Origin: a phage
Sequence record: PZ379177.1
Length of the DNA stretch: 64,000 bases
Strand: one strand, 5' to 3'
This document shows positions 16,526 through 59,434 of this stretch, in pieces. Position 1 is the stretch's first letter. Every line of letters starts with the position of its first letter. The notes under the pieces were generated by a model. The model had not been told where the DNA came from. It did no database searches and was given only the letters and a program-made list of their open reading frames with translations. A program made the translations under genes and the position numbers.

Positions 16526-17944
16526 TTATTCCCCTTTCAACCAAGCTTCAAATGCTTCGTCAGTTGCTGCAGAATCCGCAGCGGCCTTTTGTTTTGCGAC
16601 TACACGCTGTTTTTGACCGTGTTCAACGCCGCGCAGATAGTTATCCACAACGTCAAACTCAGCACCATCAACGCACTTCAAGCCTAACTTTTTAGCGCCA
16701 TATTTCGCTACGGACTTGGAGTCCATAGTTGCATGATCAAAGGCACCAACAACTTTAGACAGGCGCTGGTAGAGGCTATTCTTACGAGCAGAATCAGCGT
16801 AGAAAGCAGCAACTGCTGAATCAGATGCCATTGAGTGTTCCCCTTTTGCTGGACCTGGCGACGCTTTCGCCGCTTTTGTCGGTTTGTCATCTTTTTCGAC
16901 CGAAGCCCCCTTTACGTTGCTGTTTTGCAGGCCGCTAACCACATCTTCAGCTTTGTCGCAAGGTGATACATCTTCAGCCTTGACTTCAACTTCTTCGTCT
17001 TTGACTTCGGCTTCAACTTCTTCTTCATCACCTACCGCGCCACCTTTCAGTTTTGCAATAAGTGCTTCGATTTGGCTGATCAGTTGCGGAAGCTCGCCAC
17101 CAGCGTGAGATTCAGTTTCAACTTCAAACTTCTCTTCACCTTCTGGAGTCTCTTCAGCTTCTGCTTTGACTTCTGGATCAACCATCACTTCTTCACGTTC
17201 TTCGGTTGAATCCTTCTCTTCTGCTTTCACTTCAACTTCGTCCTGATGAGCAGCTTCGGTGCTCTCTTCATTCAGAAATTGTTCGAGCGCAGGGATCAGT
17301 GATTTCAGCTGTTCAACAGCATTATCACGCGCTTTACCTTTTAACGGTTTTGGCATGTCTAAATCCTCGTTGGATGGTGTTACAGTCGTCAAACAAAGAT
17401 GGTCAAAGCAACGACCATCCAGCACCCGTGCACCTGGTACTCGACCAACGTCCACGAGAGCAATGTGGTTGCCGCGAAGAGTTGTCTGTACCACTTCATA
17501 CGGCTGCCCGTCAAACTCTCCAGACTGTATGATGAATTCACAGTCATAGCCCAAAGACAAGTCAACCTTTCCAGAATCGATGGCTTTCTTCAGACGACGG
17601 CTAAAAACTTTAAGATCGCCGCGCATCCATGGCTTGTCATAATAAACATTGCCAGTTAGAACGCCATCAACGCCATACTCTTCGGGTGCTGTGTTATCCT
17701 CATCACCTTCGAATCCAGAAAGCATTTCGTGATTGTCTATGAAAGGGATATTTTTGAATGAATCTATCGCTTCGGGGTCTTTCACCGCTGACTCTGGGCG
17801 ATAAACTTTTACGATGCGATTCGGATCACCATCAAGTCCAACCTGACCTGCAGAATAATCAAAAATGCCAAATGACGAAATGGGACAACCCACAATCGTC
17901 AAGAATCCATTTTTGTCAATTTCGCGTGCCGTTTGCATTCGCAT
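16526..17944 (-). CDS. Putative prohead protease/scaffolding protein with acidic linker
   Basis: 472 aa. Globular N-terminal region, then a long acidic low-complexity stretch (EEVEVKAEEKDSTEEREEVMVDPEVKAEAEE...) typical of scaffold proteins. First gene after the repeat-rich intergenic region. Start could be the ATG two codons in (17938). Confidence 0.5.
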   Translation of the reverse strand: MRMQTAREIDKNGFLTIVGCPISSFGIFDYSAGQVGLDGDPNRIVKVYRPESAVKDPEAIDSFKNIPFIDNHEMLSGFEGDEDNTAPEEYGVDGVLTGNVYYDKPWMRGDLKVFSRRLKKAIDSGKVDLSLGYDCEFIIQSGEFDGQPYEVVQTTLRGNHIALVDVGRVPGARVLDGRCFDHLCLTTVTPSNEDLDMPKPLKGKARDNAVEQLKSLIPALEQFLNEESTEAAHQDEVEVKAEEKDSTEEREEVMVDPEVKAEAEETPEGEEKFEVETESHAGGELPQLISQIEALIAKLKGGAVGDEEEVEAEVKDEEVEVKAEDVSPCDKAEDVVSGLQNSNVKGASVEKDDKPTKAAKASPGPAKGEHSMASDSAVAAFYADSARKNSLYQRLSKVVGAFDHATMDSKSVAKYGAKKLGLKCVDGAEFDVVDNYLRGVEHGQKQRVVAKQKAAADSAATDEAFEAWLKGE

Positions 17945-18039: not shown

Positions 18040-18340
18040 CGCCTTAATTAGTGTGATACGGATGATACGGATAAAATGAGGCGTATTTTTATCCGTATCG
18101 GTGTATAAGCCGCGCTATCACTGGTGTGCTACGGATGATACGGATGATACGGATACTTTTCATATATAAGAGTTTATAAAAAAAATAAAATTAAATTAGA
18201 TATATAATTTTAAATTAATTTATTTGAATTCCTATAAAGTATCGCGGCAACGCGTATCATCCGTATCATCCGTAAGATTCTTTTGAAAACAACTACTTAC
18301 TTGATACGGATGATACGTCATTATACGCGTAAAATCCTGC
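18040..18340. repeat. TACGGAT-family repeat module, copy 1
   Basis: About 9 copies, e.g. GTGATACGGATGATACGGATAAAA, a 13-bp-arm palindrome GATACGGATAAAA...TTTTATCCGTATC, GCTACGGATGATACGGATGATACGGATAC and CGTATCATCCGTATCATCCGTAAGATTC, flanking an AT-rich core (AAAAAAAATAAAATTAAATTAGATATATAATTTTAAATTAATTTATTT). Confidence 0.75.
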
Positions 18341-18509: not shown

Positions 18510-19430
18510 TTAGTTCAACTTAATTGCGGTGATCTGTCCGTAAACGGTAGATGTCAATGCGTCTGTGCATTGATAGTTTAGATACACGTTGCCAGGCGCG
18601 GCAAGAGTAATTATCTTTGTTGGGATATTGCCGCCGAAACGACCTGCAGCCCGAATGCCAGCTGACATTGTAAATGCATCATCCGTAATATCTGAATTAC
18701 TTGTTGACAGCTTGACTGTAATTCCGGTATTCGCTTGAACTCCTGCTGTCGCGACAGTCAACTGACTTGCTGTCACAAGCCATTTCCCTGCAGGCAGGTT
18801 TAAGGTTGCCAGATTCACCAGAGTTGTCGGAGGATTGCTTACGCTGTTGCTTGCGTTCTGCACAGTGCTTGCAGCAGCATTAAGGACGCCAGAACCATCA
18901 ATTGATAGTGTCGTTCCTACCTTTATGCCACCCAAGGTTGATGCTGATGCAATCGGTAATGAGTATTGAGTCACACTAATTGTACCGTCACCTGCAACGC
19001 TTATGCCACTTCCTATTTTGACGCCGCCAAGAACAGAAGCCGTTGCCGCTGGTAGTGTGTATTGGTTGCTGCTGGATTTGACTACCTTAACGGCGACAGC
19101 ATTCTTGGACCCTCCAGACTCCATGCCTATAATCACTGCTTCTCCAAAAGCGATGGCGATCGTAGATGCAGTTAAACCAGTCTGCACGTCTGTTATGTTC
19201 ATTTTGGGAACTGAAAGTGTCAGATTCGGCTTGCTGGTAGAATCGCCATCATTACCGATCATAAAGAACTGGCCAACTGAATTGTATCCAGACGCCAATG
19301 GCGGACTCAATGGAACAATCAGGTTTTTATCGGATGTGAATTCCGAAACAATCGCCAAACCGTTAGCATATACAGCAGGCAATACTGGCGTTTGTCCAGA
19401 TAGAGGAAACGTGCTGATTGGTATCGTCAT
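18510..19430 (-). CDS. Structural protein with tandem beta-repeats (fibre-like)
   Basis: Track ORF 18510-19499 trimmed to the internal ATG (MTIPISTFPL...), which removes the overlap with the upstream gene ending at 19438. Internal repeat TLPAATASVLGGVKIGSGISVAGDGTISV / SLPIASASTLGGIKVGTTLSIDGSGVLN. Confidence 0.5.
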   Translation of the reverse strand: MTIPISTFPLSGQTPVLPAVYANGLAIVSEFTSDKNLIVPLSPPLASGYNSVGQFFMIGNDGDSTSKPNLTLSVPKMNITDVQTGLTASTIAIAFGEAVIIGMESGGSKNAVAVKVVKSSSNQYTLPAATASVLGGVKIGSGISVAGDGTISVTQYSLPIASASTLGGIKVGTTLSIDGSGVLNAAASTVQNASNSVSNPPTTLVNLATLNLPAGKWLVTASQLTVATAGVQANTGITVKLSTSNSDITDDAFTMSAGIRAAGRFGGNIPTKIITLAAPGNVYLNYQCTDALTSTVYGQITAIKLN

Positions 19431-19437
19431 AATGACC

Positions 19438-20289
19438 TCAAATGATTGGTATTTTTCTGCACTTGCAGTGTATCGCCCATCCAGGAGGACCGATGTCACC
19501 CTTTTTGAACTTCAACTCTCCGCCCACTTCCCATAGACGCTTGTCATCAAGTTTGAATCTCATTCCGTCGACATGTTCATGAGAGATTCGCGGCTCCTTT
19601 CCTGCTCCTGAGTGCGCCCATTCAAATTCTTCAACTCCATTCTGGCGCATCCTTTCATCGCTTAGAACGCAATACAATTTGCTTGTCTGGTCTTTAGCGA
19701 TTAAGTCGACTCTCTTTGCAGAGAAGTGTTTTACGTTTCGCAGCGCCGCCTGAATGCCTGACGTGCCTTGCTGGGCTGGGTCGGGCGAAGTCAGCGAAAG
19801 CATGACTGCTTCGTACACTCTGTTGTGAATATCCTCGCCGACCTTAGTCACTAGAGTCGTGTTAAACGTCTCGCTTGTTCTAAGAGTGTTCTCAACGAAT
19901 TTGTTATATGTGGCCTTTGGCGCTTCTATGCCTGCGGACTTAAGGCTGGCGAATGTAGCAGAAGTAGCACCCTTTTCAACCGACTTGATAAAATCAGCGG
20001 CAATCTTCGACCCAACACGAGCAAACGCCTTTGCCCATTTCAGCTGCAGACGTTTCATAAGAGTTTGGAATGTTGAATCAGCAGAGTCTTGCGCAAAGAA
20101 CTTCTGCACCTGCTTCTTTTCAAGCCACTCTGAAATTCCTGCCTGATAGTCATCAATCATCGCATAGCAAAGACCTTTCATCTCACGACGGTAGGCCATC
20201 GCAATAGCGTTTGATGGGATTATCGGACTGCCGCGCCCGATTCTATCGGGTGAGCGGCGTTCACGTTTTTTCGAAGCTTTAAAAGCCAT
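19438..20289 (-). CDS. Head morphogenesis protein (Mu gpF-like / SPP1 gp7-like)
   Basis: C-terminal signature ...EWAHSGAGKEPRISHEHVDGMRF...GPPGWAIHCKCRKI (PxxHxxCxC). Directly downstream of the portal gene. Start set at ATG 20289 (MAFKASKKRER...). Confidence 0.75.
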   Translation of the reverse strand: MAFKASKKRERRSPDRIGRGSPIIPSNAIAMAYRREMKGLCYAMIDDYQAGISEWLEKKQVQKFFAQDSADSTFQTLMKRLQLKWAKAFARVGSKIAADFIKSVEKGATSATFASLKSAGIEAPKATYNKFVENTLRTSETFNTTLVTKVGEDIHNRVYEAVMLSLTSPDPAQQGTSGIQAALRNVKHFSAKRVDLIAKDQTSKLYCVLSDERMRQNGVEEFEWAHSGAGKEPRISHEHVDGMRFKLDDKRLWEVGGELKFKKGDIGPPGWAIHCKCRKIPII

Positions 20290-20290
20290 A

Positions 20291-22666
20291 TCAACCTTGC
20301 TTCGGTGAATTAGTAGGATTATTGAGTGCTCCGTATGCTTGAGAGCAATCACCCTTCAACCACTCCTTGAATGAGTTCACATCTAATTCGTGGATTGAGT
20401 CGAATCCGTTCCAACCGTTACCAAATGATGCTTGATAAGCTTCTTTCGCTTCTTCTGCTGAATCGAATCCAAGCATACACTTGTGTTCATCAAACTCGCC
20501 AGAGTAGTTATCGTTTTGGTTCACGATAAAGACTTTCGGCGACTTCAGATTTGGACCCACAAAGCAGTCGACTTCATCACCGTCTGCGCCCTTGGTGCCC
20601 TTGATGAATCCGTAGTGGTGCGGCATCTTCACGGCCCATTCACCGTCAAGGCTGTTTCCTCTACGAATGCTGTTTCGCGGATTCTCAATGCCAAGAATCA
20701 TTCCGTGCAACTTCATCTTAGGTAATGATGCTGCGTCCATTTTACCCACGTTGTGGCGTAAGTTGACGACGTGTCCTTTAACGCTTGGAAGGGTAGACGG
20801 TTGCACCGACCGTGAATCTTTTTGAGGGTCAAAATCCACATCCTGACCTTCTTTCAGGTAGTAATCCGCAATACCCTCCAGCCCTTCTTTCAACTGCGTT
20901 AGGACATCAACCTGATGGCTTGATTCATCACCGGTATCGTCCATGTTGATTTCGACAGGCGCTTTGTCAGGGTTTTCCGCCAACTCACCACGCGCAGCAC
21001 CCTCTGGCATAATACCTGTTTCGCTATAGAACTGGCCGCCCATCTTAACGACATCAGCTTTCGCCTGTTCAATATCGGCCTTACCTTGCAGGACTTCACC
21101 AGCAGACTTGCCAAGCAATGCCATATTCTCTGGAGACATCCCTGGGGTTTCTTCTGCTGCGTCTTCCGGCAGACGGTTGTAGCCGCTGTTTTTGTCGTCT
21201 TTGATGCGGTCGCGCTCTTCATCAGGAGAAATGACGCCAGCATCAATAAGAGTTTTGCCAGTGTTGGCTCGCTTATCATTGATTTCTGCAAGTTGAGTAG
21301 CAGTAAGTGAGCCAACTGGTTCCCATGCAACCTTAACATCGACATCCACCCCTTCTGATTTGAGAAGGATTTTGTAATGGCGGTCGAGAATTTTTGTCAG
21401 GTCATGCTGCTGGCACGTTTCCAACTCTTCGTGATAGCTGACCATCTCGAATTCACCAGTGGCGTTAAAGCCTTTTGGCGAAGTCCCAAGCAGTTTGGTC
21501 GACGGAACTTTTGCGATTGCGGCCACAAGCTGGTACTGGTTCATGATGATGCTGTCGAAGTCTGACAAGTTGATGTCAAACTGGTCCATCTCTTCTTTTT
21601 GGCCAAGCACTTTGACTGCATAGTTGTCGCGGTACTTGATCCACATCATCAGACGTTCTGCAAAAGACCGCTCATTGGCAATAGCCTTGTCAACGTCGGT
21701 CCGCAGCGTCGTTGTACGCTTGGACATCGCCAGCAATGGCGCTTCGTTGGCGGTACGTTCAGCGGCATAGATGCGTTCATAAATCTGCTGAGTCAGAGGG
21801 ATGCCGCCGTAAATATAAGTCGGCTTGAGAATATCAGCTGGCTCATCGTTGCGCAAGATTATGAGGTGGCTGCGATGATAACGTTGTCCGCTGATTACCC
21901 AATATTCTGGGTCATAGAAGTGCTGTGATGCAGGGTCTGCCGTGTTTTCAGACGTCAGAAACGGCATCATCCAATAAGGGTCAACCTGAATGATTCCCTT
22001 ATAAGACCCCTTTGTCACACCATCAATGTTAAAAGGCTTGCTGTAATATTCTGGGTCATCGCTACGCACATCAAATATGATGACGCGGATACCAAAAATA
22101 TTTTTGAATCGTTCGGCTTCAACTAAGTGCTCTTTGATATTAAATTCTTTATCAATTTGCTTTAGGCGTTCGCTTGCCTGTACTGACAATTCTGACTCAG
22201 AACTGGATTTGACTTCCCAACCTTTACGGACCGCATCGCGGCCTACCATGGAACACGCCTTGTTCACCAGCCAATGCTGTGCGATGATGGCACAAGCTTG
22301 ATAGCCGATGAATGACTGTGACAGATACCAGTTTTGAAGTTGAATAGGTACTGTGTATGGGTTGACTTGCCCTTCTGAACTGATGTTCTTTAAGGCATTA
22401 TCCATAACCTTTTTGGATACTGTTGCGGAATCGACTGAACGACCTTTTATGATTGCAACACCATCGCCATTAATATCAGGCTCATATAAAGGGAAGTCAT
22501 CAACCGTTTTAAAGGTCGGTCGATTGCTTTCAGTCTTTTCCCAGCGTTGACCGCTGCCGCGCCTTTCAAGGCGTTCAAACGGTGCCAATGGGTCGCCTGG
22601 CGGCATCTCCGCTGGTTCGGCTTCTGGTTGCGTCTTCTCCCAGAGTTTTATGCCAAGAATTTTCAT
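20291..22666 (-). CDS. Portal protein with C-terminal inorganic-pyrophosphatase-like domain
   Basis: Large ORF between terminase and the Mu-F-like gene. Track start is TTG at 22699; ATG at 22666 (MKILGIKLW...) with AGGTGG RBS preferred. C-terminal ~150 aa carries MPHHYGFIKGTKGADGDEVDCFVG, which resembles the pyrophosphatase core [24 protein letters not shown]. Confidence 0.65.
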   Translation of the reverse strand: MKILGIKLWEKTQPEAEPAEMPPGDPLAPFERLERRGSGQRWEKTESNRPTFKTVDDFPLYEPDINGDGVAIIKGRSVDSATVSKKVMDNALKNISSEGQVNPYTVPIQLQNWYLSQSFIGYQACAIIAQHWLVNKACSMVGRDAVRKGWEVKSSSESELSVQASERLKQIDKEFNIKEHLVEAERFKNIFGIRVIIFDVRSDDPEYYSKPFNIDGVTKGSYKGIIQVDPYWMMPFLTSENTADPASQHFYDPEYWVISGQRYHRSHLIILRNDEPADILKPTYIYGGIPLTQQIYERIYAAERTANEAPLLAMSKRTTTLRTDVDKAIANERSFAERLMMWIKYRDNYAVKVLGQKEEMDQFDINLSDFDSIIMNQYQLVAAIAKVPSTKLLGTSPKGFNATGEFEMVSYHEELETCQQHDLTKILDRHYKILLKSEGVDVDVKVAWEPVGSLTATQLAEINDKRANTGKTLIDAGVISPDEERDRIKDDKNSGYNRLPEDAAEETPGMSPENMALLGKSAGEVLQGKADIEQAKADVVKMGGQFYSETGIMPEGAARGELAENPDKAPVEINMDDTGDESSHQVDVLTQLKEGLEGIADYYLKEGQDVDFDPQKDSRSVQPSTLPSVKGHVVNLRHNVGKMDAASLPKMKLHGMILGIENPRNSIRRGNSLDGEWAVKMPHHYGFIKGTKGADGDEVDCFVGPNLKSPKVFIVNQNDNYSGEFDEHKCMLGFDSAEEAKEAYQASFGNGWNGFDSIHELDVNSFKEWLKGDCSQAYGALNNPTNSPKQG

Positions 22667-22828
22667 TGTTAACGCCACCTGACAGTGAAAGGGAATCAAT
22701 CTATATTATAAATATTCATGTGTTTGTAAGCAAATGATATGTATGGTGATCATAAATAGTTCATAAAATATTTTGCTTTTGTATCATTTTGAGTTATATT
22801 TTAGTTAACTAAACGAAAGGAGATTGAA

Positions 22829-23484: not shown

Positions 23485-24945
23485 TCAAAGGTTAGAGAAG
23501 AAGCCGGATGCTGCAACAATTGGTTTCATCAACGCCATGATTGCTGCGTCCGCTTTGTTAGGCGATTTGACTCCACGCTTTGCCATATCCTTTTTCGATT
23601 CAACTTTAAACTTACCAAGCACAGACGTGTCTTTGCGCGGCGCTGACATCTCAAAAAGAAATGTCTCAATTTCTTCCGCAGACCAAGCAGGAATCCCAAG
23701 TTCTGGAATGCCGTCTGTGTCGATGGAAATCAGCTCATCAGTCGGGTATACGGCCTGCCCTGTTGCATACTCATATGTCTTCCTGAATCGTTCGGCAATC
23801 TCAGTCCATTTTTGCGCTTTTATGTTTGCGAAATGGTCTTTATTGAGTATTTCAACGTGTGGTAACTCAAGGAAGACGTCATCAGGATCATCAACAGCAC
23901 CTTGCGCGTTGAACGCATTAAATTCGATTCTTGGGAATGTTGGATTTTCATGGATTGCATACTCATTAAGCTCATCAAATTTTGAACCAGCAAATGCACC
24001 AACACCGATGGCGTCATAGGTAATTGATGCGCCGAATGTTAATGCATCTTTCCAAACTCCGCTTGCGGACTTAAGCAATTCATCTTCCAGACCTTCCCAT
24101 GTCTTGATGCCGCGCAATACGTTGCCCGTGACAAATGCTGTGGCGTTTAAGTCGTCGCCGTCGTCTGCCACGTCAAAGCCTATGCGGTTAGACCCTGACA
24201 AGCTCCATCCCAGCGTAGGGTGTTTGTGTAGGTTTAGCGCGGCCTTGACGAATGCACGGTTTATGACAGACTTGTCGCCGCCTGTCTTCGGTACTCCGCC
24301 ATAAACGTGTTCTGCCTTTTTCGGGTCGCGCTCATACATGCCAGCAATAACGTCCAGCATTGTTTGCGACAAGAATGGATTGTCCTGCCAGTTAATCTTC
24401 TTAACGATGGCGTTCTTCGGCGGTCGCATGACAAAGTTCTGGTAGACGAAATCAGCCTCTTCATCAGGGTTAAATATGATCCATATTTCGGACCCTTCCT
24501 TACGAATTGTCGGCTCAATAATGTCCCACTGCTCTTCAGTCAGCGCGTGCGCTTCCTCAAGCCAAAGAACATCAACGCCTTCTGTTGATTTGATTTCGTC
24601 AACGTTGCGTGCAATACCGTAAAATAAAAATTCAGATTTTGTTCTTTTGTGTTCAATAGAGTTCTTTAATAAGTTGAACTCGTCTTTAAAATCAGAAATC
24701 TCTATTTTGTCTTTTAATAGCGTATATACTGATTCAGAAATCTTGTTCTGGAATTGTCGGACGCAAAGGAATTTTAATTTAAAGTTTGCCGCCAAATAAA
24801 TAGCAAAACCAGCGGCATCATGCGATTTGGAAGATGCACGACCGCCGTATATTACTTTGTATCGCGCTTTCGTCTTCCAGACTTCTCTTAAAGCAGGATT
24901 CAACTGGTACATGACTTTCCAATTATGTGTTAATATTTTATTCAT
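23485..24945 (-). CDS. terL: Terminase large subunit
   Basis: 486 aa. N-terminal Walker A-like VIYGGRASSKSHD, Walker B-like VLWLEEAH, C-terminal acidic nuclease-type region GFDVADDGDD. Adjacent to portal. Confidence 0.9.
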   Translation of the reverse strand: MNKILTHNWKVMYQLNPALREVWKTKARYKVIYGGRASSKSHDAAGFAIYLAANFKLKFLCVRQFQNKISESVYTLLKDKIEISDFKDEFNLLKNSIEHKRTKSEFLFYGIARNVDEIKSTEGVDVLWLEEAHALTEEQWDIIEPTIRKEGSEIWIIFNPDEEADFVYQNFVMRPPKNAIVKKINWQDNPFLSQTMLDVIAGMYERDPKKAEHVYGGVPKTGGDKSVINRAFVKAALNLHKHPTLGWSLSGSNRIGFDVADDGDDLNATAFVTGNVLRGIKTWEGLEDELLKSASGVWKDALTFGASITYDAIGVGAFAGSKFDELNEYAIHENPTFPRIEFNAFNAQGAVDDPDDVFLELPHVEILNKDHFANIKAQKWTEIAERFRKTYEYATGQAVYPTDELISIDTDGIPELGIPAWSAEEIETFLFEMSAPRKDTSVLGKFKVESKKDMAKRGVKSPNKADAAIMALMKPIVAASGFFSNL

Positions 24946-30043: not shown

Positions 30044-30749
30044 GTGGTTTTGGTGATTTTGGTGATTTAACCGTGAATCGTGGGTCGCTGTGGCGGCCCT
30101 TTCTTTTGCCTGCCGCGCAGGAGTGTACTGCAAATTTACTGTGGGCACAAAATAGTACGGTACTGTCCAGGACTTTTTCTTTGAAAAGTTAGTGGACCAA
30201 ATGTGTCGTATTTTGATTAGTGTACTGCAAATTCCATCAAGTAGCAAAACGCACCAAAAGACCCATGCCATAAAAACCACACGAACGCAATAATCAATCG
30301 CCGTTACAGTTTCCAGCGTTACAATTCGAAAGCGAATGATTCGATGCATAATAATATGAAGCATAATGATTCGAAAGCTAATGATTGCGTGTAGGATAAT
30401 ATCGGTGGGGATTATTCTAGATGCATGTAATTTCGCATGCGTACTATTTTCGGACGAAGGGTCGGCATATTCCTCGTTTTAGTTCGGAACGAAGGGAAAG
30501 TTTTGCGCCTTTATAAAACAATGACTTACGCGACCCGCCCTAACGGTCCGATATAGGTGTCTATATAAAACAAGGACTTACGCGATGTTCTCCATTTAAC
30601 GTAATACCCGTTATGCGAACTAAGGCGCATCTCGACGAAGATTATGCGACGACGAAGGGAAGGATAAAGGAGTTTTCGCGGAGAAGCGCATCGAGATAGG
30701 GACGAAGAAAAGCCGCGACTAAGCGCGGCCTATTAGTAACGGAAGGGTA
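30040..30749. repeat. Long non-coding repeat-rich region
   Basis: No credible ORF. Contains tandem TGGTGATTT x2, GTGTACTGCAAAT at about 30124 and 30221, AATGATTCGAAAGC-like x2, ACGAAGG x4, and TATAAAACAA(T/G)GACTTACGCGA twice (30510-30535, 30561-30587). Confidence 0.6.
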
Positions 30750-31040
30750 TTATAAGGAAACGATTTTAAAGAAAGAGTAACGGCCTTCGCCTTCGGATAC
30801 CGCGAGATATTCGCCGCCGAACTCCGTAGCAAAATAAACCTTGCCTTCGATAGTAACGCGGAAGGTAGAAATATCTTCCTCTTCGAGTTCCGTAAATTCG
30901 CTAAAATCGATAGGACTATGAAGCTCCTCGATAGTCGCATCTACGTTAAAGAGATAAACGTTTTTAAGTTTTTCGCCAAATACGTTAGAGTTTTCGGAAG
31001 TTTCGGCGCGAGCGTTACGGATAGCGGCTAAAGTAATCAT
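30750..31040 (-). CDS. Small acidic early protein B (96 aa)
   Basis: Preceded by the conserved leader ...CCCAACTAGGAGATTATTATG and promoter cassette B. Acidic product. Leu codons TTA/CTC/CTT; TG/CA dinucleotides depleted. Confidence 0.55.
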   Translation of the reverse strand: MITLAAIRNARAETSENSNVFGEKLKNVYLFNVDATIEELHSPIDFSEFTELEEEDISTFRVTIEGKVYFATEFGGEYLAVSEGEGRYSFFKIVSL

Positions 31041-31099
31041 AATAATCTCCTAGTTGGGTCGGGAGGGTAGCGACCTATTCGCTACCTCATCCCCTCTCG

Positions 31100-31137
31100 A
31101 TATAAAACATTATAGTCTTAGTGTACGAAGAAGTAAA
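31100..31137 (-). promoter_or_regulatory. Sigma70-like promoter, cassette B
   Basis: In gene sense: TTTACT - 17 nt - TATAAT, followed by TTTTATATCGAGAGGGG, a stem-loop (GTAGCGAATAGGTCGCTAC) and the conserved RBS. Confidence 0.55.
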
Positions 31138-31148
31138 GCACTTTTTCA

Positions 31149-31451
31149 TTATTCTGCGATAAAATATTTATAAGCTTTATCGCCTTCTACGTCGATATAC
31201 TCGACGATAATTAACGCTTCGCCGCGAGGCGTAACCGTCTCGATAAGGGTAACGGCTTCGTCGTCGGTCTTCGCGAAGCGGATGGCGCTACGTTCGGCAT
31301 ACTTCATATCGTCGAAGGAAAGGCCGATGAAGGCGACCGCGCGGACCTTAATGGCGCTAGATTCTAGTTCCGCGTTAACGGCGGCGATAAGAGAGCGAAC
31401 AGTTAAGCGGTCTTCGTCGTAAGTAAGGATGGAAGAGATTAAAGTAGTCAT
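31149..31451 (-). CDS. Small acidic early protein C (100 aa)
   Basis: Track ORF 31149-31508 trimmed to ATG 31451 (MTTLISSIL...), which follows the conserved GGGAGCTTTATTATG leader; preceded by promoter cassette C. Confidence 0.55.
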   Translation of the reverse strand: MTTLISSILTYDEDRLTVRSLIAAVNAELESSAIKVRAVAFIGLSFDDMKYAERSAIRFAKTDDEAVTLIETVTPRGEALIIVEYIDVEGDKAYKYFIAE

Positions 31452-31497
31452 AATAAAGCTCCCGATGCTAGTAGAAGAAAGGGCCATCGCCCGTCTC

Positions 31498-31535
31498 GAT
31501 ATAAACAAGTATACGCGAGTGTACGAAGAAGTAAA
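31498..31535 (-). promoter_or_regulatory. Sigma70-like promoter, cassette C
   Basis: In gene sense: TTTACT - 16 nt - TATACT, followed by TGTTTATATCGAGACGGG. Confidence 0.5.
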
Positions 31536-31579
31536 GAAAAAAGATAAAATAATTTATCGCATTTTTATCTAAAAAGTGC

Positions 31580-31615
31580 TTTACTTTTTTCTACACTATA
31601 TTATAATGTACTCAT
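31580..31615 (+). promoter_or_regulatory. Sigma70-like promoter, cassette A
   Basis: TTTACT (31580-31585) - 16 nt - TATAAT (31602-31607), followed by CTCATATCGGGACGGG, stem-loop GTTAACGAATAGGTCGTTAAC and CCCAACTAGGAGTTTATTATG. Confidence 0.55.
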
Positions 31616-31675
31616 ATCGGGACGGGATGAGTTAACGAATAGGTCGTTAACGCCTCTCCCAACTAGGAGTTTATT

Positions 31676-31990
31676 ATGGCTATCGTTACCCGCTTTACCC
31701 TCGAAAACGCAACCGCCGAAGTCCAGGGCGTTACGCTTACTTACGGCGAAATTCTCGCTAAATTCTCCGGCGTTCGCTTAGGCGAAGAAATTAACGACGC
31801 GACGGTAATCGAGCAACTCGCTGCTTCTCGCTTAGAGCGCGACGAAAACGGATTCTTCGAAGTCGATGCGGAATTAAATTTATGCGGTAAAACGGCGTTT
31901 ATTAACGAGTTCGAACTCGCCGTTTTAGTTAATTACGATAGCAAAGCTTACGCCTTCGCCCTCGAATTAATCGAAGACGACGAAGAGTAA
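31676..31990 (+). CDS. Small strongly acidic early protein A (104 aa), DNA-mimic-like candidate
   Basis: First gene after promoter cassette A. Product has many Glu/Asp and ends ELIEDDEE. No CTG or TTG Leu codons. Confidence 0.55.
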   Translation: MAIVTRFTLENATAEVQGVTLTYGEILAKFSGVRLGEEINDATVIEQLAASRLERDENGFFEVDAELNLCGKTAFINEFELAVLVNYDSKAYAFALELIEDDEE

Positions 31991-32070
31991 GAGAGGATTT
32001 TTAGAGCGTCGTGCGCGGCGCTTTAATAAAATTCTTTCGCGCCTAGCGCCCTAACAAATAGGAGTTTATT

Positions 32071-32697
32071 ATGGTTAGCTTAAATCGCTTTTCTACTAGC
32101 GGCGACGTTATCGCAACTAAGACCGCCGACCTCGTTGCATTCTATAATGCAAATTCCGGCTCAAAACCGATTAAGAAGTTTGCGGACCGCCGGACCGCCG
32201 AGACTCGCGTAATCGCGTTAATCGAGTCCTTAAACGCGCTCGATGCGCCGTCCAACGAGTCGCCCATCCCCGACGCGAAGGCGCGCGAGGAAGTGTCCAG
32301 CGATGTAAAAACTCATAAGGCGCGTGCGGTCGTTAAAAAGGCTGAGCCGACCCAGGAAGAACTCGACGCGATGACCGACGAAGAATATGAAGCCTTCGTT
32401 AAGAGCGGTTTAAATGATAGTGCAAATTGCGTAGTGCAAAATGGAACTCCTTCCCATCGCCGTTCGAATAGCGAAGGTATTGCAAAAAGCTGGGATAATA
32501 AGGAAGTGGCGCAAAAGCGTCTCACCCGTAACGGTGTCATGGTCGAGGGTGTAGGCGAGTTCAAATCGGTCCGCGTAGCGTTCGCTGCGCTGGGATTACC
32601 GGATAGCAAGCACATTCGCTTCCGCATGAAGCTTAAGGAAGCTGGGCGCTTGAACTTCGAGTTCGGCAACAAGTCCTACACCTTCCAGATTATCTAA
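32071..32697 (+). CDS. Hypothetical protein
   Basis: 208 aa; RBS context AATAGGAGTTTATTATG resembles cassette A. Contains two in-frame TAGTGCAAA repeat copies. Confidence 0.55.
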   Translation: MVSLNRFSTSGDVIATKTADLVAFYNANSGSKPIKKFADRRTAETRVIALIESLNALDAPSNESPIPDAKAREEVSSDVKTHKARAVVKKAEPTQEELDAMTDEEYEAFVKSGLNDSANCVVQNGTPSHRRSNSEGIAKSWDNKEVAQKRLTRNGVMVEGVGEFKSVRVAFAALGLPDSKHIRFRMKLKEAGRLNFEFGNKSYTFQII

Positions 32698-32747
32698 TAG
32701 AATGGCGGCCCTTCGGGGTCGCTTTTCATAGTGCAAATTGGTGGCTT

Positions 32748-33011
32748 ATGAATACGCTCATTCTCATCGCTACGTTATCCATCGGAAGTGGTCGCACCTT
32801 ATCCCTTTACGACCATAGTGCAAATTGCGCTTATCCTACGCGCGTTGCGGCGATAGTTAATAGTGCAAATAAGATGCTATTCGAGACTTGCTGGCGGGTC
32901 GATAACGAGAAAGGTCGGGTAGTCTTAGGTTATAGTGCAAATCTGCTGGTGGAGTCGTTCGATTGGACGGTTGAAGGTCGTAAATTGTTACGGAAAGTGA
33001 CTAAAAGATGA
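32748..33011 (+). CDS. Hypothetical protein (iteron-encoded SAN repeats)
   Basis: 87-aa ORF. Three in-frame TAGTGCAAA copies give HSANC, NSANK and YSANL. Could be a reading frame imposed by the repeats rather than a functional protein. Confidence 0.4.
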   Translation: MNTLILIATLSIGSGRTLSLYDHSANCAYPTRVAAIVNSANKMLFETCWRVDNEKGRVVLGYSANLLVESFDWTVEGRKLLRKVTKR

Positions 33012-33125
33012 CTTATAATAATACACTTTCTAACGCGTTTATGGTTGTAACCTTCCCCGTCGTATTACCGATGGCCCTAGAAGTGGAGAAAATGTGTTCT
33101 AGGGCCGTTTTATAGTGCAAATTGG

Positions 33126-33614
33126 CTAGTGGCGGGAGAATTGCTCACCTTCTTTGGCCGCCTCTCCAAAATCCTTGTAGAAATCGTCCATGGAACGGCC
33201 CATTTTACTATTGCCGTTTTCATCAATCATCGTGATGCCGTAGATGATATTCAGTTCACGAATAGCATTAAGTTTGGCTGACGCCGCGACTTCTGGATCA
33301 CGCACAAGCTTGACCAAATTGTGAATTGCACCTTTTACGCTCCACAAATCCTTGAGTGGCATCTCTTCCATACGCTTTTTGAAGCGCATCTTGTAGTATG
33401 GATTGCGTTGCGCGCAAAGGATTCGCTGGCCAGTGTAGTTATCCGTTGCAACTTCCATTCCAAATACTAGTGCAAAAGCTGCGCGCATGTCATGGCCCTG
33501 AATAACAAGGTCAATGAACTCATCGAATAAAGCCTGATTGTGCTCTGCAAATCGCGGGTCTTCAAAGTCTTCAGGCATCGCTACATAATCTTGACTCATA
33601 GTGCAAAATCCCAT
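33126..33614 (-). CDS. Hypothetical protein, possible helix-turn-helix DNA-binding protein
   Basis: 162-aa ORF whose start codon lies within an iteron copy (reverse complement TTTGCACTATG). A small-terminase-like role is speculative. Confidence 0.45.
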   Translation of the reverse strand: MGFCTMSQDYVAMPEDFEDPRFAEHNQALFDEFIDLVIQGHDMRAAFALVFGMEVATDNYTGQRILCAQRNPYYKMRFKKRMEEMPLKDLWSVKGAIHNLVKLVRDPEVAASAKLNAIRELNIIYGITMIDENGNSKMGRSMDDFYKDFGEAAKEGEQFSRH

Positions 33615-33699
33615 AGTGCAAATTAATAGTGTGAATTATACAATGGATGGACATTATATTCAAGTGCAGATTGATGTTCATTATGGCTATAAACGTACA

Positions 33700-34110
33700 C
33701 AAATCATAGTGCTGAATGGATAACGGACCGTGGTGCGTGGTGTACTGTTTGATACGGATAAAAGAAATCCATCCCTTTCGCCGCTTGTTATGCAAATCAA
33801 TGACTTAGCCGCTGCTGGCTGGTTTAAGCGTATCATGACGTATCATCCGTATTGCCGCAAGTCTTTGTTTTTACTTATATCTTACGGATAATACGTTAAA
33901 TATATAAATTAACATAAGTATGAGGATGTAGAAAAAAAATTAATTTAAATTAATTCAAAATGGAGTTAATTAATTTTTGAAATAATTCTGGTTACAATAA
34001 GGAAAAATGGCGTATCATCCGTATCATCCGTAAGATTCAGTGTACAAATCCAGGCGCGGCGCACCCTAGCGCCATGATACGGATAAAAACCTATCCGTAA
34101 GAGTGTACGC
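33700..34110. repeat. TACGGAT-family repeat module, copy 2
   Basis: About 8 direct and inverted copies of GATACGGAT/ATCCGTATC flanking an AT-rich core (GAAAAAAAATTAATTTAAATTAATTC...). Shares the exact 29-mer CGTATCATCCGTATCATCCGTAAGATTC with the module at 18.2 kb. Confidence 0.75.
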
Positions 34111-34415
34111 TTCAATTAAAGAATCCAGGCGCGGCGCGGCTTTCACCACCACACACCACGGTTCACTCTCCAAAATCCGCACACTAAATTCCAAAATCCA
34201 ATGCTCATACTCCAAAAATAAATCCAAATTTCCATTTTATTTATTATTTTCATCCACAATATACTAAATTCTATCCGTATTAACCACGACTCAACCCACC
34301 ACGATTCATGCCAATCACTTCAAAATTTCCATCGAAAACGACAAAAGGCCGCGTAAAGCGACCAATTGCACACATTCCATTATTCAAAACACGTAAACGA
34401 GTGTTCTTTTATCCA

Positions 34416-34955
34416 CTATAATTTAGGCATCAATCCCTTTTCCGTTCTCCTTTTTATCTCGTCTTCTATCATTTTATTGGTCACTCTATAGCCAATCCTT
34501 TCCAATTCCATTAATACTTCCTTTTGGTATTTTCTTATTTTCACAATGTCAACCGTATCCCTCCAATAAGATAATACCTTCTTAATGACTGACTTTTCCA
34601 TTTTATATCTGGCGGTAGTCATATACTTCATTTTAAAAATAGAGTTGATCGCATCAGTCTTTAACCATTCCTTTCTTAATTCAGGATGATCATTCCAAAG
34701 AGTAATGGCGAACTCCTGCGGACTTTTGCACCTGCTTTGAAGCTCCTTTATATAGTCAGCCGTTTTTACTTTTCTATCTAAACGCGCGCGGCAAACGGTG
34801 CACTCTTCCTTGAGCAACCAATCGGCCTTCTTATCAATTTGCAAAGTTGAATTGCCATCCCTTTTATACCTGCCGCAAAAGCTTATGCCTTCATCTTTTA
34901 AGAAGTAATGCAACTCTTTAGAGTATTTCGCTTTACGCCAAAAGCCTCCCATCAC
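34416..34955 (-). CDS. Hypothetical early protein
   Basis: 179-aa ORF; Cys-containing, basic. Confidence 0.5.
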   Translation of the reverse strand: MMGGFWRKAKYSKELHYFLKDEGISFCGRYKRDGNSTLQIDKKADWLLKEECTVCRARLDRKVKTADYIKELQSRCKSPQEFAITLWNDHPELRKEWLKTDAINSIFKMKYMTTARYKMEKSVIKKVLSYWRDTVDIVKIRKYQKEVLMELERIGYRVTNKMIEDEIKRRTEKGLMPKL

Positions 34956-57914: not shown

Positions 57915-59434
57915 AAACACAAGGAATGCGCCACCAATTATTGGCGCTTGATAAAGCAGGCCGCAGAAAATACTTTGCTTATTTTATGGAGCAGGGTCTT
58001 GGCAAAACCTGGACTGCTTTGGCAGAGTTTGAAAAGCACTTCACTGCTGGCGCGTTCGATGCCATGGTCGTCATCGCTCCAAACGGTGTCCACTCCAACT
58101 GGATTCGTCGTGAAGCACCAGAACACCTTTCCATCAAGTGGATTGGGCACTACTGGCGCGGCAACGACAAGATGAAGACTAAAAAGGGCAAGGCGCTTTG
58201 GGAGAAGATGTTTGCTGATCACTACCCTGAAGGCGAAGTGCCTGCGCGCATCTTCTCATTCAACATCGATACCGTCAACACACCAGTAGGTTATCAACAC
58301 ATCGAGTCGGTCTTGAAGAAATACCGCTGCCTGATGATCATTGATGAATCGACTCGCATCAAAAATAACACAGCAAAACGCTCCATCAAGGTCGTGGAGT
58401 TGGGTCGGCTGGCAAAGGCCCGTCGAATCCTTTCTGGCACGCCGTTGCCGCGCTCGCCTGCGGATATTTACATGCAATATCACTTCCTTGAAGCAGGCTT
58501 GCTCGGCACCAAATCTTTCCGCGCCTTCAACTCTGAATTCACTGTGCTACTTGAAGCGCACGACCCAGAAATGCAAGCCATCCTCAAGAAAATCGGCGGC
58601 AATGGCTATGGGATTCCGCAAGTGCCGCGCAAAGACCAGTTTGGCCGACCGATGTACAAAAACCTTGACAAGCTTATCCGGCTGATGGAACCGCACTATT
58701 TTCGTGCGACAAAAGCGGAATACTTGCCTGACCTTCCAGAGAAGGTGTATAAGTTTATCGACTTCGAGCTGTCGCCTAAACAACGCGATGTCTACGATGA
58801 ACTCAAGAATGAGTACAACTATTTGATGGAATACAAGGGCGAAGAAGAAAACGTCAAGTTTGAGATGATCGCATCTCGCACTAAGATGAAGCAGGTGACA
58901 TCAGGCTTTGTTAAGGTGTATGATGAGATGGTCTACATGGAAGACAACCCACGATTCACAGCCTTTAAGGATTATGTGGAAGGGGTGCTGGAAGACGACC
59001 CAGAGCGCAAATTCATTGTTTGGGCCATCTTTAAGGAAGAGATGAACCAGATTAAGGACTGGCTTGAGTCTGAAGGCGTGGTCACTGGTGTGTACAACGG
59101 TGAAACATCAAAAGAGCAGCGCGAGTTCTTGATTGATGACTTCCAGAAAAACACAGTCGAGAACGGTGGAACGCAAGTGTTGGTGTGTCACGCAGCTGCG
59201 GCAGGCATCGGAATCACGCTTACCGCCGCCGACTTGGCAATCTATTATTCTTGCAACTATGACAACGAGTTGCGAAAGCAATCCGAAGACCGAAATCACC
59301 GCATCGGCACCAAATCAAGCGTGTTGTATGTTGATTTTATTGGCGTTGATACCATCGACGAAGAAATTCAGCGTTCACTGAGCATGAAATCTATGCTTGC
59401 TGATCACATCCTCGACGGCAAAAAGATGAATTAA
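57911..59434 (+). CDS. SNF2-family helicase
   Basis: 507 aa; motifs MEQGLGKTWT, LMIIDESTRIKN, LSGTPLPRSPADIY and C-terminal helicase motif QVLVCHAAAAGIGITLT. Confidence 0.85.
   Translation: MKTQGMRHQLLALDKAGRRKYFAYFMEQGLGKTWTALAEFEKHFTAGAFDAMVVIAPNGVHSNWIRREAPEHLSIKWIGHYWRGNDKMKTKKGKALWEKMFADHYPEGEVPARIFSFNIDTVNTPVGYQHIESVLKKYRCLMIIDESTRIKNNTAKRSIKVVELGRLAKARRILSGTPLPRSPADIYMQYHFLEAGLLGTKSFRAFNSEFTVLLEAHDPEMQAILKKIGGNGYGIPQVPRKDQFGRPMYKNLDKLIRLMEPHYFRATKAEYLPDLPEKVYKFIDFELSPKQRDVYDELKNEYNYLMEYKGEEENVKFEMIASRTKMKQVTSGFVKVYDEMVYMEDNPRFTAFKDYVEGVLEDDPERKFIVWAIFKEEMNQIKDWLESEGVVTGVYNGETSKEQREFLIDDFQKNTVENGGTQVLVCHAAAAGIGITLTAADLAIYYSCNYDNELRKQSEDRNHRIGTKSSVLYVDFIGVDTIDEEIQRSLSMKSMLADHILDGKKMN

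What the first reader, a model, noticed from the sequence alone, without database searches (positions are those of the whole stretch)
33640..34400. TACGGAT-family iteron module, copy 2, adjoining a strand-asymmetric CA-rich tract
The second copy has about 8 TACGGAT/ATCCGTA units, the same AT-rich core and the same 29-mer. It sits between the TAGTGCAAA array and the leftward early operon. It is followed (34130-34330) by a C/A/T-only tract with TCCAAAAT-like repeats and almost no G. Two homologous modules 16 kb apart, each upstream of a long leftward operon, suggest paired regulatory or origin elements.
Basis: seen in the sequence. Interest (0 to 1): 0.6.

Follow-up and report, generated by a model that had tools for sequence, protein, structure and literature searches.

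The report
Phage genome end and packaging site
The repeat-flanked AT-rich module is where this E. coli phage's packaged DNA begins, next to the small-terminase gene, and related phages carry an unexplained second copy of it among their head genes.

Summary
There are 8 exact TACGGAT/ATCCGTA words at 33753-34279. An 84% AT core and an exact 29-mer are shared with a second module at 18055-18328. A tract at 34141-34340 has 5% G, the lowest of any 200-nt stretch in the window.

The window is a Wifcevirus, an E. coli myophage related to PB1. Four relatives sequenced by three groups all start at the same base. That base maps to window 33961|33962, at the dyad centre of the AT core. The gene 350 bp away (33126-33599, minus strand) is the small terminase (E = 1.6e-45 to PDB 7UXE). 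So copy 2 is the left boundary of a 3.7-kb terminal repeat, and most likely the packaging-initiation site.

The same two-module layout recurs in Pantoea phage Kyle, Pseudomonas phage E217 and Salmonella phage PCSE1. One module lies upstream of the small terminase gene and one upstream of the head protease gene. Each lineage has its own repeat word, confined to its two modules.

The strand asymmetry is conserved in composition but not in sequence, and only at the terminase-side module. An origin role and the role of copy 1 remain open. Nothing supports a small RNA.

The parts
33890..34016 (.). AT-rich core of module copy 2. The physical left end of the virion DNA maps between 33961 and 33962.
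   Evidence: 80% A+T. The records of WFH, WFC, Ro157lw and Mansfield all begin at the base that aligns with 33961. Inverted repeats I3, I9 and I10 are centred at 33953-33968.
34010..34038 (+). Inner repeat array on the unique-sequence side of the core (two ATCCGTA units). It lies within the exact 29-mer shared with copy 1.
   Evidence: The words are invariant in 10 Wifcevirus genomes, while the half-core beside them varies in sequence and length.
33828..33896 (.). Repeat arrays on the terminal-repeat side: GCGTATCATGACGTATCATCCGTAT (33828-33852) and TCTTACGGATAATACGT (33880-33896).
   Evidence: inverted repeats I3 and I5. Conserved in all relatives.
34075..34099 (.). Palindromic pair of words, TGATACGGATAAAAACCTATCCGTA, forming the outer site on the unique-sequence side.
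33717..33763 (.). Outer dyad arm on the terminal-repeat side (CGTGGTG words plus one TACGGAT). It pairs with 34147-34172 and 34269-34303.
   Evidence: Inverted repeats I1 (35 nt, 77%) and I2 (26 nt, 81%). ACCACG occurs in inverted orientation on the two sides.
34130..34345 (+). G-poor CA-rich tract. It reads as GT-rich on the strand that encodes the small terminase. It holds one ATCCGTA at 34273 and the ACCACG and TCCAAAA words.
   Evidence: 5-7% G. The sequence diverges among Wifceviruses, but positive GC skew upstream of the module is conserved in every lineage examined.
34347..34363 (-). Intrinsic terminator-like hairpin that ends the leftward early operon upstream of the module.
   Evidence: Annotated as a terminator in WFH.
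33126..33599 (-). Small terminase (TerS) gene.
   Evidence: A profile of the protein and its relatives matches PDB 7UXE (E217 small terminase) at E = 1.6e-45 over 149 residues. The Mansfield record annotates it as terminase small subunit.
33635..33680 (-). Two overlapping sigma-70-like promoter matches (10 of 12 positions each) between the module and TerS.
   Evidence: These are consensus matches only.
30257..33961 (.). Stretch equivalent to the direct terminal repeat of related phages (3705 bp here). It is present once in this collapsed assembly.
   Evidence: The ends of the WFH and Ro157lw records map to 33961 and 30257. Published repeat lengths are 3533-3784 bp.
18055..18328 (.). Module copy 1: repeat arrays around an AT core (18155-18251), in the same orientation as copy 2. 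It lies between a terminator (18400->18378) and the promoter-like site of the head protease gene.
16526..17944 (-). Head maturation protease gene (DUF2213), the first gene downstream of copy 1.
   Evidence: Pfam E = 5.1e-35. Annotated as head maturation protease in ManiWeber.
23485..24945 (-). Large terminase (TerL) gene.
   Evidence: Pfam Terminase_3, E = 3.2e-37.
32071..32697 (+). Conserved 208-aa protein of unknown function, convergent with TerS. It is a second candidate binder of the repeat words.
   Evidence: 35% identical to E217 gp79 (E = 5e-31). Homologues exist in Kyle and PCSE1. No Pfam, NCBIfam or PDB match.

Best explanation
Copy 2 (about 33717-34345) is the concatemer-junction and packaging-initiation region of a Wifcevirus. 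A phage protein binds the 9-bp-phased GATACGGAT words. The most likely binder is the ring-forming small terminase encoded 350 bp away. The words form inverted arrays on both sides of a 110-bp AT-rich core. The large terminase then cuts in that core, at 33961|33962, which is the dyad centre. This cut makes the left end of the virion DNA. Packaging then runs toward the TerS gene, through the 3.7-kb repeat and the rest of the genome, and stops after the next copy of the repeat near 30257. Copy 1 binds the same factor but is not a genome end. Its role is inferred only: it may be a partner site that the terminase pairs with the terminal module, or a feedback control on the head operon. What is shown: the position of the end, the identity of TerS, and the paired conservation with lineage-specific words. 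What is inferred: which protein binds, the direction of packaging, and what copy 1 does.
For: 1. Four Wifcevirus records from three laboratories begin at the same base. These are WFH and WFC (ends placed where most reads stop), Ro157lw (PhageTerm) and Mansfield (PhageTerm). That base aligns to window 33961|33962.
2. In Pantoea phage Kyle the left end of the terminal repeat also falls in the AT core of the equivalent module.
3. In Pbunavirus Ab27, reads show a single fixed termination and no terminal repeat. Its first base equals E217 position 58659, inside the core of the E217 module.
4. The adjacent ORF is a small terminase (E = 1.6e-45 to 7UXE). This adjacency holds in all four lineages checked. 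The primase gene is adjacent in only two of them.
5. The cut lies at the centre of a roughly 590-bp imperfect palindrome.
6. The words are invariant across 10 Wifceviruses, while the spacer sequence between them varies.
7. Each lineage has its own word, confined to its two modules. Kyle has GGTTATT 7 and 6 times, with none elsewhere in 31 kb. E217 has GTAATTTG 5 and 4 times, with none elsewhere in 27 kb. PCSE1 has ATATCGGC and TATAACGG.
8. The N-terminal half of TerS, where established knowledge of other small terminases places the DNA-binding domain, varies more than the ring-forming C-terminal core.
9. With this direction of packaging the early operon is packaged last. This would fit its being the first DNA to enter the next host (my inference; the order of DNA entry was not tested).
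Against: 1. No binding data exist. The review reports that E217 TerS showed no appreciable DNA binding in vitro; it does not say which DNA was tested.
2. A packaging site does not need a second copy 16 kb away. In Kyle that copy has an almost identical core, including the cut position, yet no record begins there.
3. Inverted binding arrays around an AT-rich core are also the classic layout of a replication origin.
4. The ends were determined on relatives that are 90-95% identical here, not on this phage.
5. Pseudomonas phage Banzai, another Pbunavirus, gave no PhageTerm peak at all.
Confidence: 0.72

Rival explanations
1. Both modules are replication origins. An initiator, such as the phage primase-helicase, binds the inverted word arrays and melts the AT-rich core. 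The genome end lies in one origin either by coincidence or because fork or nick formation there is used to duplicate the terminal repeat.
For: The modules contain the two AT-richest stretches of the whole window, each flanked by inverted repeat arrays. There are two homologous copies per genome. From memory, SPP1 oriL/oriR, P4 ori/crr and the three HSV origins are precedents. In E217 and PCSE1 the TerS-side module sits directly downstream of the primase gene. Duplicating a 3.7-kb repeat needs DNA synthesis that starts at its left boundary (inference).
Against: In Wifcevirus and Kyle the module is not next to any replication gene, yet it is always next to TerS. DnaA boxes are not enriched and none lies in a core. 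The cumulative GC-skew minima published for Pbunavirus lie within the replication genes. An origin does not by itself explain a fixed virion end at the dyad centre in three genera.
Confidence: 0.25
2. The modules are upstream regulatory regions of late genes. A phage transcription factor, or TerS acting as a regulator, binds the words and controls the sigma-70-like promoters of TerS and of the head protease, capsid and tail operon.
For: Each module lies between a terminator and a promoter-like site that faces a late gene. The head-gap position, just upstream of the protease gene, is kept in five lineages. From memory, SPP1 TerS binds a packaging region that overlaps the promoter of its own operon.
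Against: Other late units, such as those starting with TerL or the portal gene, have no such module. There are only two modules per genome. The arrays extend 100-300 bp beyond the promoter-like sites and surround a 100-bp AT core, which is far more than an operator needs. This reading does not explain the genome end. Promoter-like matches are no more frequent than in shuffled sequence.
Confidence: 0.2
3. The CA-rich tract encodes a small regulatory RNA transcribed rightward out of the module.
For: A weak promoter-like site (9 of 12 positions) at 33991-34018 faces rightward. The compositional bias of the flank is conserved.
Against: No Rfam match. The + strand RNA is unstructured (z +0.78). The sequence of the tract is not conserved even within the genus. 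The promoter-like site is not conserved in the WFH-type or WFC-type variants. The bias is mirrored on the other side of the dyad, which suggests a property of the DNA rather than of a transcript.
Confidence: 0.07

Closest known systems
SPP1 packaging site (pacL-pacC-pacR) bound by the small terminase G1P (from memory, not tested here)
   Same: Short repeated protein-binding boxes lie on both sides of a cleavage region of about 100 bp. The site is next to the small terminase gene. Packaging runs from the cut toward the terminase gene.
   Different: SPP1 packages by the headful, without a fixed terminal repeat. No second homologous packaging module is known elsewhere in its genome. The boxes are unrelated in sequence. 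Here the arrays are longer, dyad-symmetric and flanked by strand-skewed tracts.
T7/T3 concatemer junction (terminal repeat, pacB, SRL/SRR short-repeat arrays) (from memory)
   Same: Virion ends are fixed by sequence, with a direct terminal repeat. Arrays of short repeats flank the repeat boundary. The repeat must be duplicated during maturation.
   Different: The T7 repeat is 160 bp, against 3.7 kb here. In T7 the terminase genes sit at the right end and are not inside the repeat. T7 has no internal second copy. The terminases are of different families (TerL here is Terminase_3).
T4 gp16 pairing of homologous pac-like sites in genes 16 and 19 (from memory)
   Same: Two homologous sites lie kilobases apart, one at the small terminase gene and one among the structural genes. 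In T4 they are proposed to be brought together by rings of small terminase.
   Different: The T4 sites are about 24 bp, lie inside coding sequence, and T4 ends are not fixed. Here the sites are intergenic modules of 270-600 bp with AT cores. Pairing of the two modules here is pure conjecture.
Pseudomonas phage E217 and the PB1-like terminase system (PDB 7UXE)
   Same: TerS is homologous. The TerS gene lies far from TerL. E217 has the same two-module layout, with the word GTAATTTG(G).
   Different: Pbunaviruses are reported as headful packagers or to have a single fixed end without a terminal repeat. No packaging site has been assigned in the papers I could read. The main E217 terminase paper was not available.
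Paired iteron origins: SPP1 oriL/oriR, P4 ori/crr, HSV oriS (from memory)
   Same: Binding sites are repeated or inverted around an AT-rich segment. There are two homologous copies per genome, one of them in a late-gene region.
   Different: None of these origins coincides with a virion end. No initiator is linked to the modules here.

Membership tests
Terminase recognition and cleavage site at a direct-terminal-repeat boundary | The physical end of the virion DNA lies at a fixed sequence inside the element. | tested here: met
   The first bases of the WFH, WFC, Ro157lw and Mansfield records align to 33961|33962. The methods used to place the ends are given. This was tested on relatives, not on reads of this phage.
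Terminase recognition and cleavage site at a direct-terminal-repeat boundary | The genome has a direct terminal repeat that begins at the element. | tested here: met
   Self-comparison of the records gives terminal repeats of 3701, 3784 and 3533 bp, all starting at that base. Kyle has 3603 bp. The window holds a single collapsed copy, at 30257-33961.
Terminase recognition and cleavage site at a direct-terminal-repeat boundary | The phage encodes small and large terminase subunits. | tested here: met
   TerS matches 7UXE at E = 1.6e-45. TerL matches Terminase_3 at E = 3.2e-37.
Terminase recognition and cleavage site at a direct-terminal-repeat boundary | The small terminase binds the element specifically, and the element is sufficient for packaging. 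| not testable with these tools
   This needs gel-shift or footprinting assays and a plasmid packaging assay. The review reports no appreciable DNA binding by E217 TerS in vitro.
Iteron-type replication origin | Repeated binding words lie next to an AT-rich unwinding element. | tested here: met
Iteron-type replication origin | The element is linked to an initiator gene, or carries host DnaA boxes. | tested here: inconclusive
   A primase gene is adjacent in E217 and PCSE1 but not in Wifcevirus or Kyle. DnaA boxes number 13 against 14.5 expected, and none lies in a core.
Iteron-type replication origin | Replication starts at the element. | not testable with these tools
   This needs copy-number profiling or 2D gels. 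The published Pbunavirus GC-skew minima lie elsewhere, which is weak evidence.
Small non-coding RNA gene (CA-rich tract) | A conserved sequence or structure, or membership of a described RNA family. | tested here: not met
   No Rfam match at E <= 1. Folding z-scores are +0.78 and -1.69. The sequence is not conserved within the genus.
Chi-like RecBCD-attenuating sequence (GT-rich strand of the tract) | The E. coli Chi octamer GCTGGTGG, in the active orientation, near the DNA end. | tested here: not met
   No match within one mismatch anywhere in 34130-34345.

The most novel reading that the evidence does not exclude
PB1-like myophages (Wifcevirus, Kylevirus, Pbunavirus and relatives) use a two-part DNA recognition system. 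One lineage-specific factor, probably the decameric small terminase, binds two homologous dyad-symmetric modules 16-20 kb apart. One module is cleaved to make the genome end. The other, upstream of the head protease gene, is never cleaved. Pairing of the two modules, or titration of the factor between them, would license packaging or link it to head production. Alternatively the modules could serve as combined origin and packaging elements that prime duplication of the 3.7-kb repeat.
Probability: 0.25. Interest if true: 0.8.

Novelty: new variant of a known kind. Interest (0 to 1): 0.6.

Why it matters
Wifceviruses and Pbunaviruses are used or proposed for phage therapy and biocontrol. Their packaging signals are unknown, and the published accounts of PB1-like genome ends contradict each other. 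E217 small terminase has a solved structure but no known DNA target. This analysis supplies concrete candidate targets: GATACGGAT arrays in Wifcevirus and GTAATTTGG arrays in Pbunavirus. It also fixes a cut position and identifies a conserved second site. Several questions become directly testable. What does this terminase family recognise? How is a long terminal repeat delimited and duplicated, a mechanism described as unknown? Why does one lineage make terminal repeats while a sister lineage packages by the headful from what looks like the same site? The result also matters in practice, for opening genome records at the true end and for designing packageable vectors or rebooted synthetic genomes.

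Tried and rejected
1. Small RNA: no Rfam match and no significant fold.
2. Chi-like protection of the new DNA ends: no Chi octamer in the tract.
3. DnaA-dependent origin: boxes are not enriched.
4. Promoter function of the words: sigma-70-like matches are no more frequent than in shuffles and lie outside the arrays. The TATCAT created by the words is not matched with a conserved -35 element in the variants.
5. The 208-aa neighbour of TerS as binder: no family or solved-structure match. The single-sequence AlphaFold model was unusable (pLDDT 38), so no fold search was run.
6. Widening the survey: the diverse TerS alignment A4 was too divergent for the search for related loci.
7. Evidence that copy 1 is a second end: no record starts there.
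8. Literature: the main E217 terminase paper is not held. The transcription-start tables for phage 14-1 are not held. No held paper contains the long repeat strings.
9. The head-gap module is not universal. It is not evident in Xanthomonas phage XcP1 or in the metagenomic lineage L160.

Full report
**Observation.** TACGGAT occurs 23 times in the window against 5.06 expected, and no shuffle reached 23. Eight hits lie at 33753-34279 and nine at 18057-18311. An exact 29-mer, GCGTATCATCCGTATCATCCGTAAGATTC, occurs only at 18252-18280 and 34010-34038. The two AT-richest 100-nt stretches of the whole window (84% AT) are the cores of the two modules. The + strand of 34141-34340 has 5% G, the lowest G or C content of any 200-nt stretch on either strand. 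One correction is needed. Copy 2 lies downstream of the long leftward operon, after its terminator at 34363->34347, and upstream of a single leftward gene.

**What the genome is.** The window is 90-95% identical in this region to Wifcevirus phages: RCIP0319, Ro157lw, WFH, WFC, FEC19 and vB_Eco4M-7. These are E. coli myophages of 66-72 kb, distantly related to the Pseudomonas PB1-like Pbunavirus. Gene content agrees:
- Large terminase at 23485-24945 (minus strand), Terminase_3.
- Portal protein at 20291-22699.
- Head fibre protein at 18510-19499.
- DUF2213 head maturation protease at 16526-17944.

**The genome end lies inside the finding.** Several Wifcevirus records carry a direct terminal repeat, and three groups reported it. 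Korf et al. gave about 3.7 kb for WFC and WFH, with the ends placed where most reads stop abruptly. Liao et al. gave 3533 bp for Ro157lw using PhageTerm. D'Souza et al. gave 3673 bp for Mansfield using PhageTerm. I compared the two ends of each record and found repeats of 3701, 3784 and 3533 bp. All of these records, and Mansfield, begin at the same base...TTAATTAACTCC|ATTTTGAATTAATTTAAATT. On the minus strand of the window this is 33961|33962, in the middle of the AT-rich core. Inverted repeats I3, I9 and I10 are centred at 33953-33968. Longer arms (33717-33763 against 34147-34303) extend the dyad to about 590 bp. The right end of WFH and Ro157lw maps to 30257, and WFC ends 83 bp further on. 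The window therefore holds one collapsed copy of the repeat at 30257-33961.

**The neighbouring gene is the small terminase.** The ORF at 33126-33599 (minus strand) has no Pfam match, and its PHROG family has no assigned function. A profile of the protein and six relatives matches PDB 7UXE at E = 1.6e-45 over 149 residues. 7UXE is the decameric small terminase of Pbunavirus E217. The Mansfield record already calls the gene terminase small subunit. A review notes that the E217 TerS gene lies about 58 kb from TerL, and that E217 TerS showed no appreciable DNA binding in vitro.

**Anatomy of the modules.** I read both modules in the direction of the TerS gene. Both have the same plan. Inner arrays of 9-bp-phased GATACGGAT units point toward a core of 100-110 bp. 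Outer arrays point away from it. In copy 2 one outer array is replaced by a palindromic pair at 34075-34099. Sigma-70-like promoter matches (10 of 12 positions) lie between each module and its downstream gene. Terminator-like hairpins lie upstream of each module. Across ten Wifcevirus genomes the words and the bases next to the cut never change. The half-core on the unique-sequence side exists in three versions of different sequence and length. The CA-rich tract is not alignable between these types. The words are therefore under selection in their own right.

**The pair of modules is conserved, with lineage-specific words.** Copy 1 lies in a 415-bp gap between a small ORF downstream of the head fibre gene and the head maturation protease gene. 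The same two-module layout occurs in three further lineages. "Other" counts copies outside the two modules in the sequence I held for each phage:

| Phage | TerS identity to window | Word | TerS-side | Head gap | Other |
|---|---|---|---|---|---|
| Pantoea phage Kyle | 43% | GGTTATT | 7 | 6 | 0 in 31 kb |
| Pseudomonas phage E217 | 41% | GTAATTTG | 5 | 4 | 0 in 27 kb |
| Salmonella phage PCSE1 | 30% | ATATCGGC | 4 | 5 | 1 in 32 kb |
| Salmonella phage PCSE1 | 30% | TATAACGG | 4 | 4 | 0 in 32 kb |

Kyle also carries the related word GGATATT in both modules.

Two more lineages show one module each:
- Metagenomic contigs L030-L032 (TerS 42% identical) have AGTTGCGG words around an AT-rich core just upstream of TerS.
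- Contig L157 (protease 54% identical) has ACTTTTC words and an 84% AT core in the head gap.

The head-gap module is not evident in Xanthomonas phage XcP1 or in lineage L160.

Within each phage the two cores are also homologous to each other. In Kyle they are nearly identical across the cut position. Kyle's terminal repeat (3603 bp) begins in the core of its TerS-side module. [quoted passage not shown] The first base of Ab27 is E217 position 58659, inside the core of the E217 module. There are only two modules per genome. The 4 kb of genome missing from the window has no TACGGAT in WFH.

**The strand asymmetry.** On the TerS-coding strand, the flank upstream of the TerS-side module is G-rich. 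GC skew there is +0.3 to +0.86 in the Wifceviruses, E217, PCSE1 and L030, and weaker in Kyle. The downstream flank tends to be C-rich, reaching -0.7 in E217. The head-gap modules show no such pattern. Part of it is the mirror image of a GT-rich stretch on the other side of the dyad (I1 and I2). As a result, both DNA ends made by the cut carry a G/T-rich strand that ends 3'. I could not assign a function to this. There is no Chi octamer, no Rfam match and no RNA structure beyond shuffled controls.

**Interpretation.** The best-supported reading is that copy 2 is the site where packaging starts and where the genome end is made. The position of the end, the identity of the neighbouring gene and the paired conservation are shown. 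Three things are inferred:
- That TerS is the protein that binds the words. This is supported by adjacency in all four lineages, against two of four for the primase gene, and by greater variability of the TerS N-terminal half.
- That packaging runs toward TerS.
- What copy 1 does.

An origin function remains a serious rival. It could also coexist with packaging, because a 3.7-kb repeat must be re-synthesised from its left boundary. A purely transcriptional role fits the position of copy 1 but explains neither the end nor the size of the modules.

**Novelty.** The terminal repeat and the TerS annotation are already published. I found no description of the repeat-flanked core, of the end lying at its dyad centre, of the second copy, or of the lineage-specific words. 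The long repeat strings occur in no held paper. The main E217 terminase paper could not be read, so prior description there cannot be excluded. I class this as a new variant of a known kind: a terminase recognition and cleavage region with an unusual, conserved internal duplicate.

Noticed in passing
window 32418-33622: TAGTGCAAA has 10 exact copies, all on the + strand, and all inside the terminal-repeat-equivalent region. Three tandem 15-bp units (CATAGTGCAAAATCC / CATAGTGCAAATTAA / TAGTGTGAATTATAC) overlap the TerS start codon on the opposite strand. The variants TACTGCAAA at 30126 and 30223 sit beside the right boundary of the repeat.
   Followed up: partly
window 30300-30395: Just inside the right boundary of the terminal repeat (30257) there are three copies of an AATGATTCGA-like word. 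They may mark the terminating cut. The WFC record ends 83 bp beyond the WFH and Ro157lw ends.
   Followed up: no
window 32071-32697 (+): A 208-aa protein is conserved as the convergent neighbour of TerS in Wifcevirus, Kyle and E217 (gp79), and has two paralogues in PCSE1. It has conserved N- and C-terminal domains joined by a variable acidic linker. It has no family or structure match, and the AlphaFold model failed.
   Followed up: partly
window 20291-22699 (-): The portal protein (Phage_portal_3) carries a C-terminal domain that matches Pfam InPase, PF18823 (inorganic pyrophosphatase), at E = 3.1e-46.
   Followed up: no
L019 (E217 record) about 58990-59080: The leader between the module and the TerS gene in E217 contains two tandem copies of a roughly 43-bp CA-rich unit (CACCCACCATCGTCGCCCACCAACCGCCGACTCGATCCT). 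The annotated gene gp77 overlaps the module and is probably not a real gene.
   Followed up: no
whole window: Sequences within one mismatch of the E. coli Chi octamer are over-represented, 56 against 35.8 +/- 6.3 expected. None lies in the CA-rich tract.
   Followed up: no
one search hit list: Dozens of contigs of about 68 kb that encode proteins nearly identical to this phage's occur in public sequencing-run assemblies (Logan, ENA and NCBI). Many are labelled as Escherichia coli and one as Salmonella enterica. Wifceviruses therefore seem to be frequent passengers or contaminants in bacterial isolate sequencing.
   Followed up: no
window 34416-34955 (-): This 179-aa ORF, directly upstream of the terminator, has an extremely purine-rich coding strand. 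The + strand of 34411-34610 has 7% G. It extends the skewed region into coding sequence. The protein matches phrog_2358, of unknown function.
   Followed up: no
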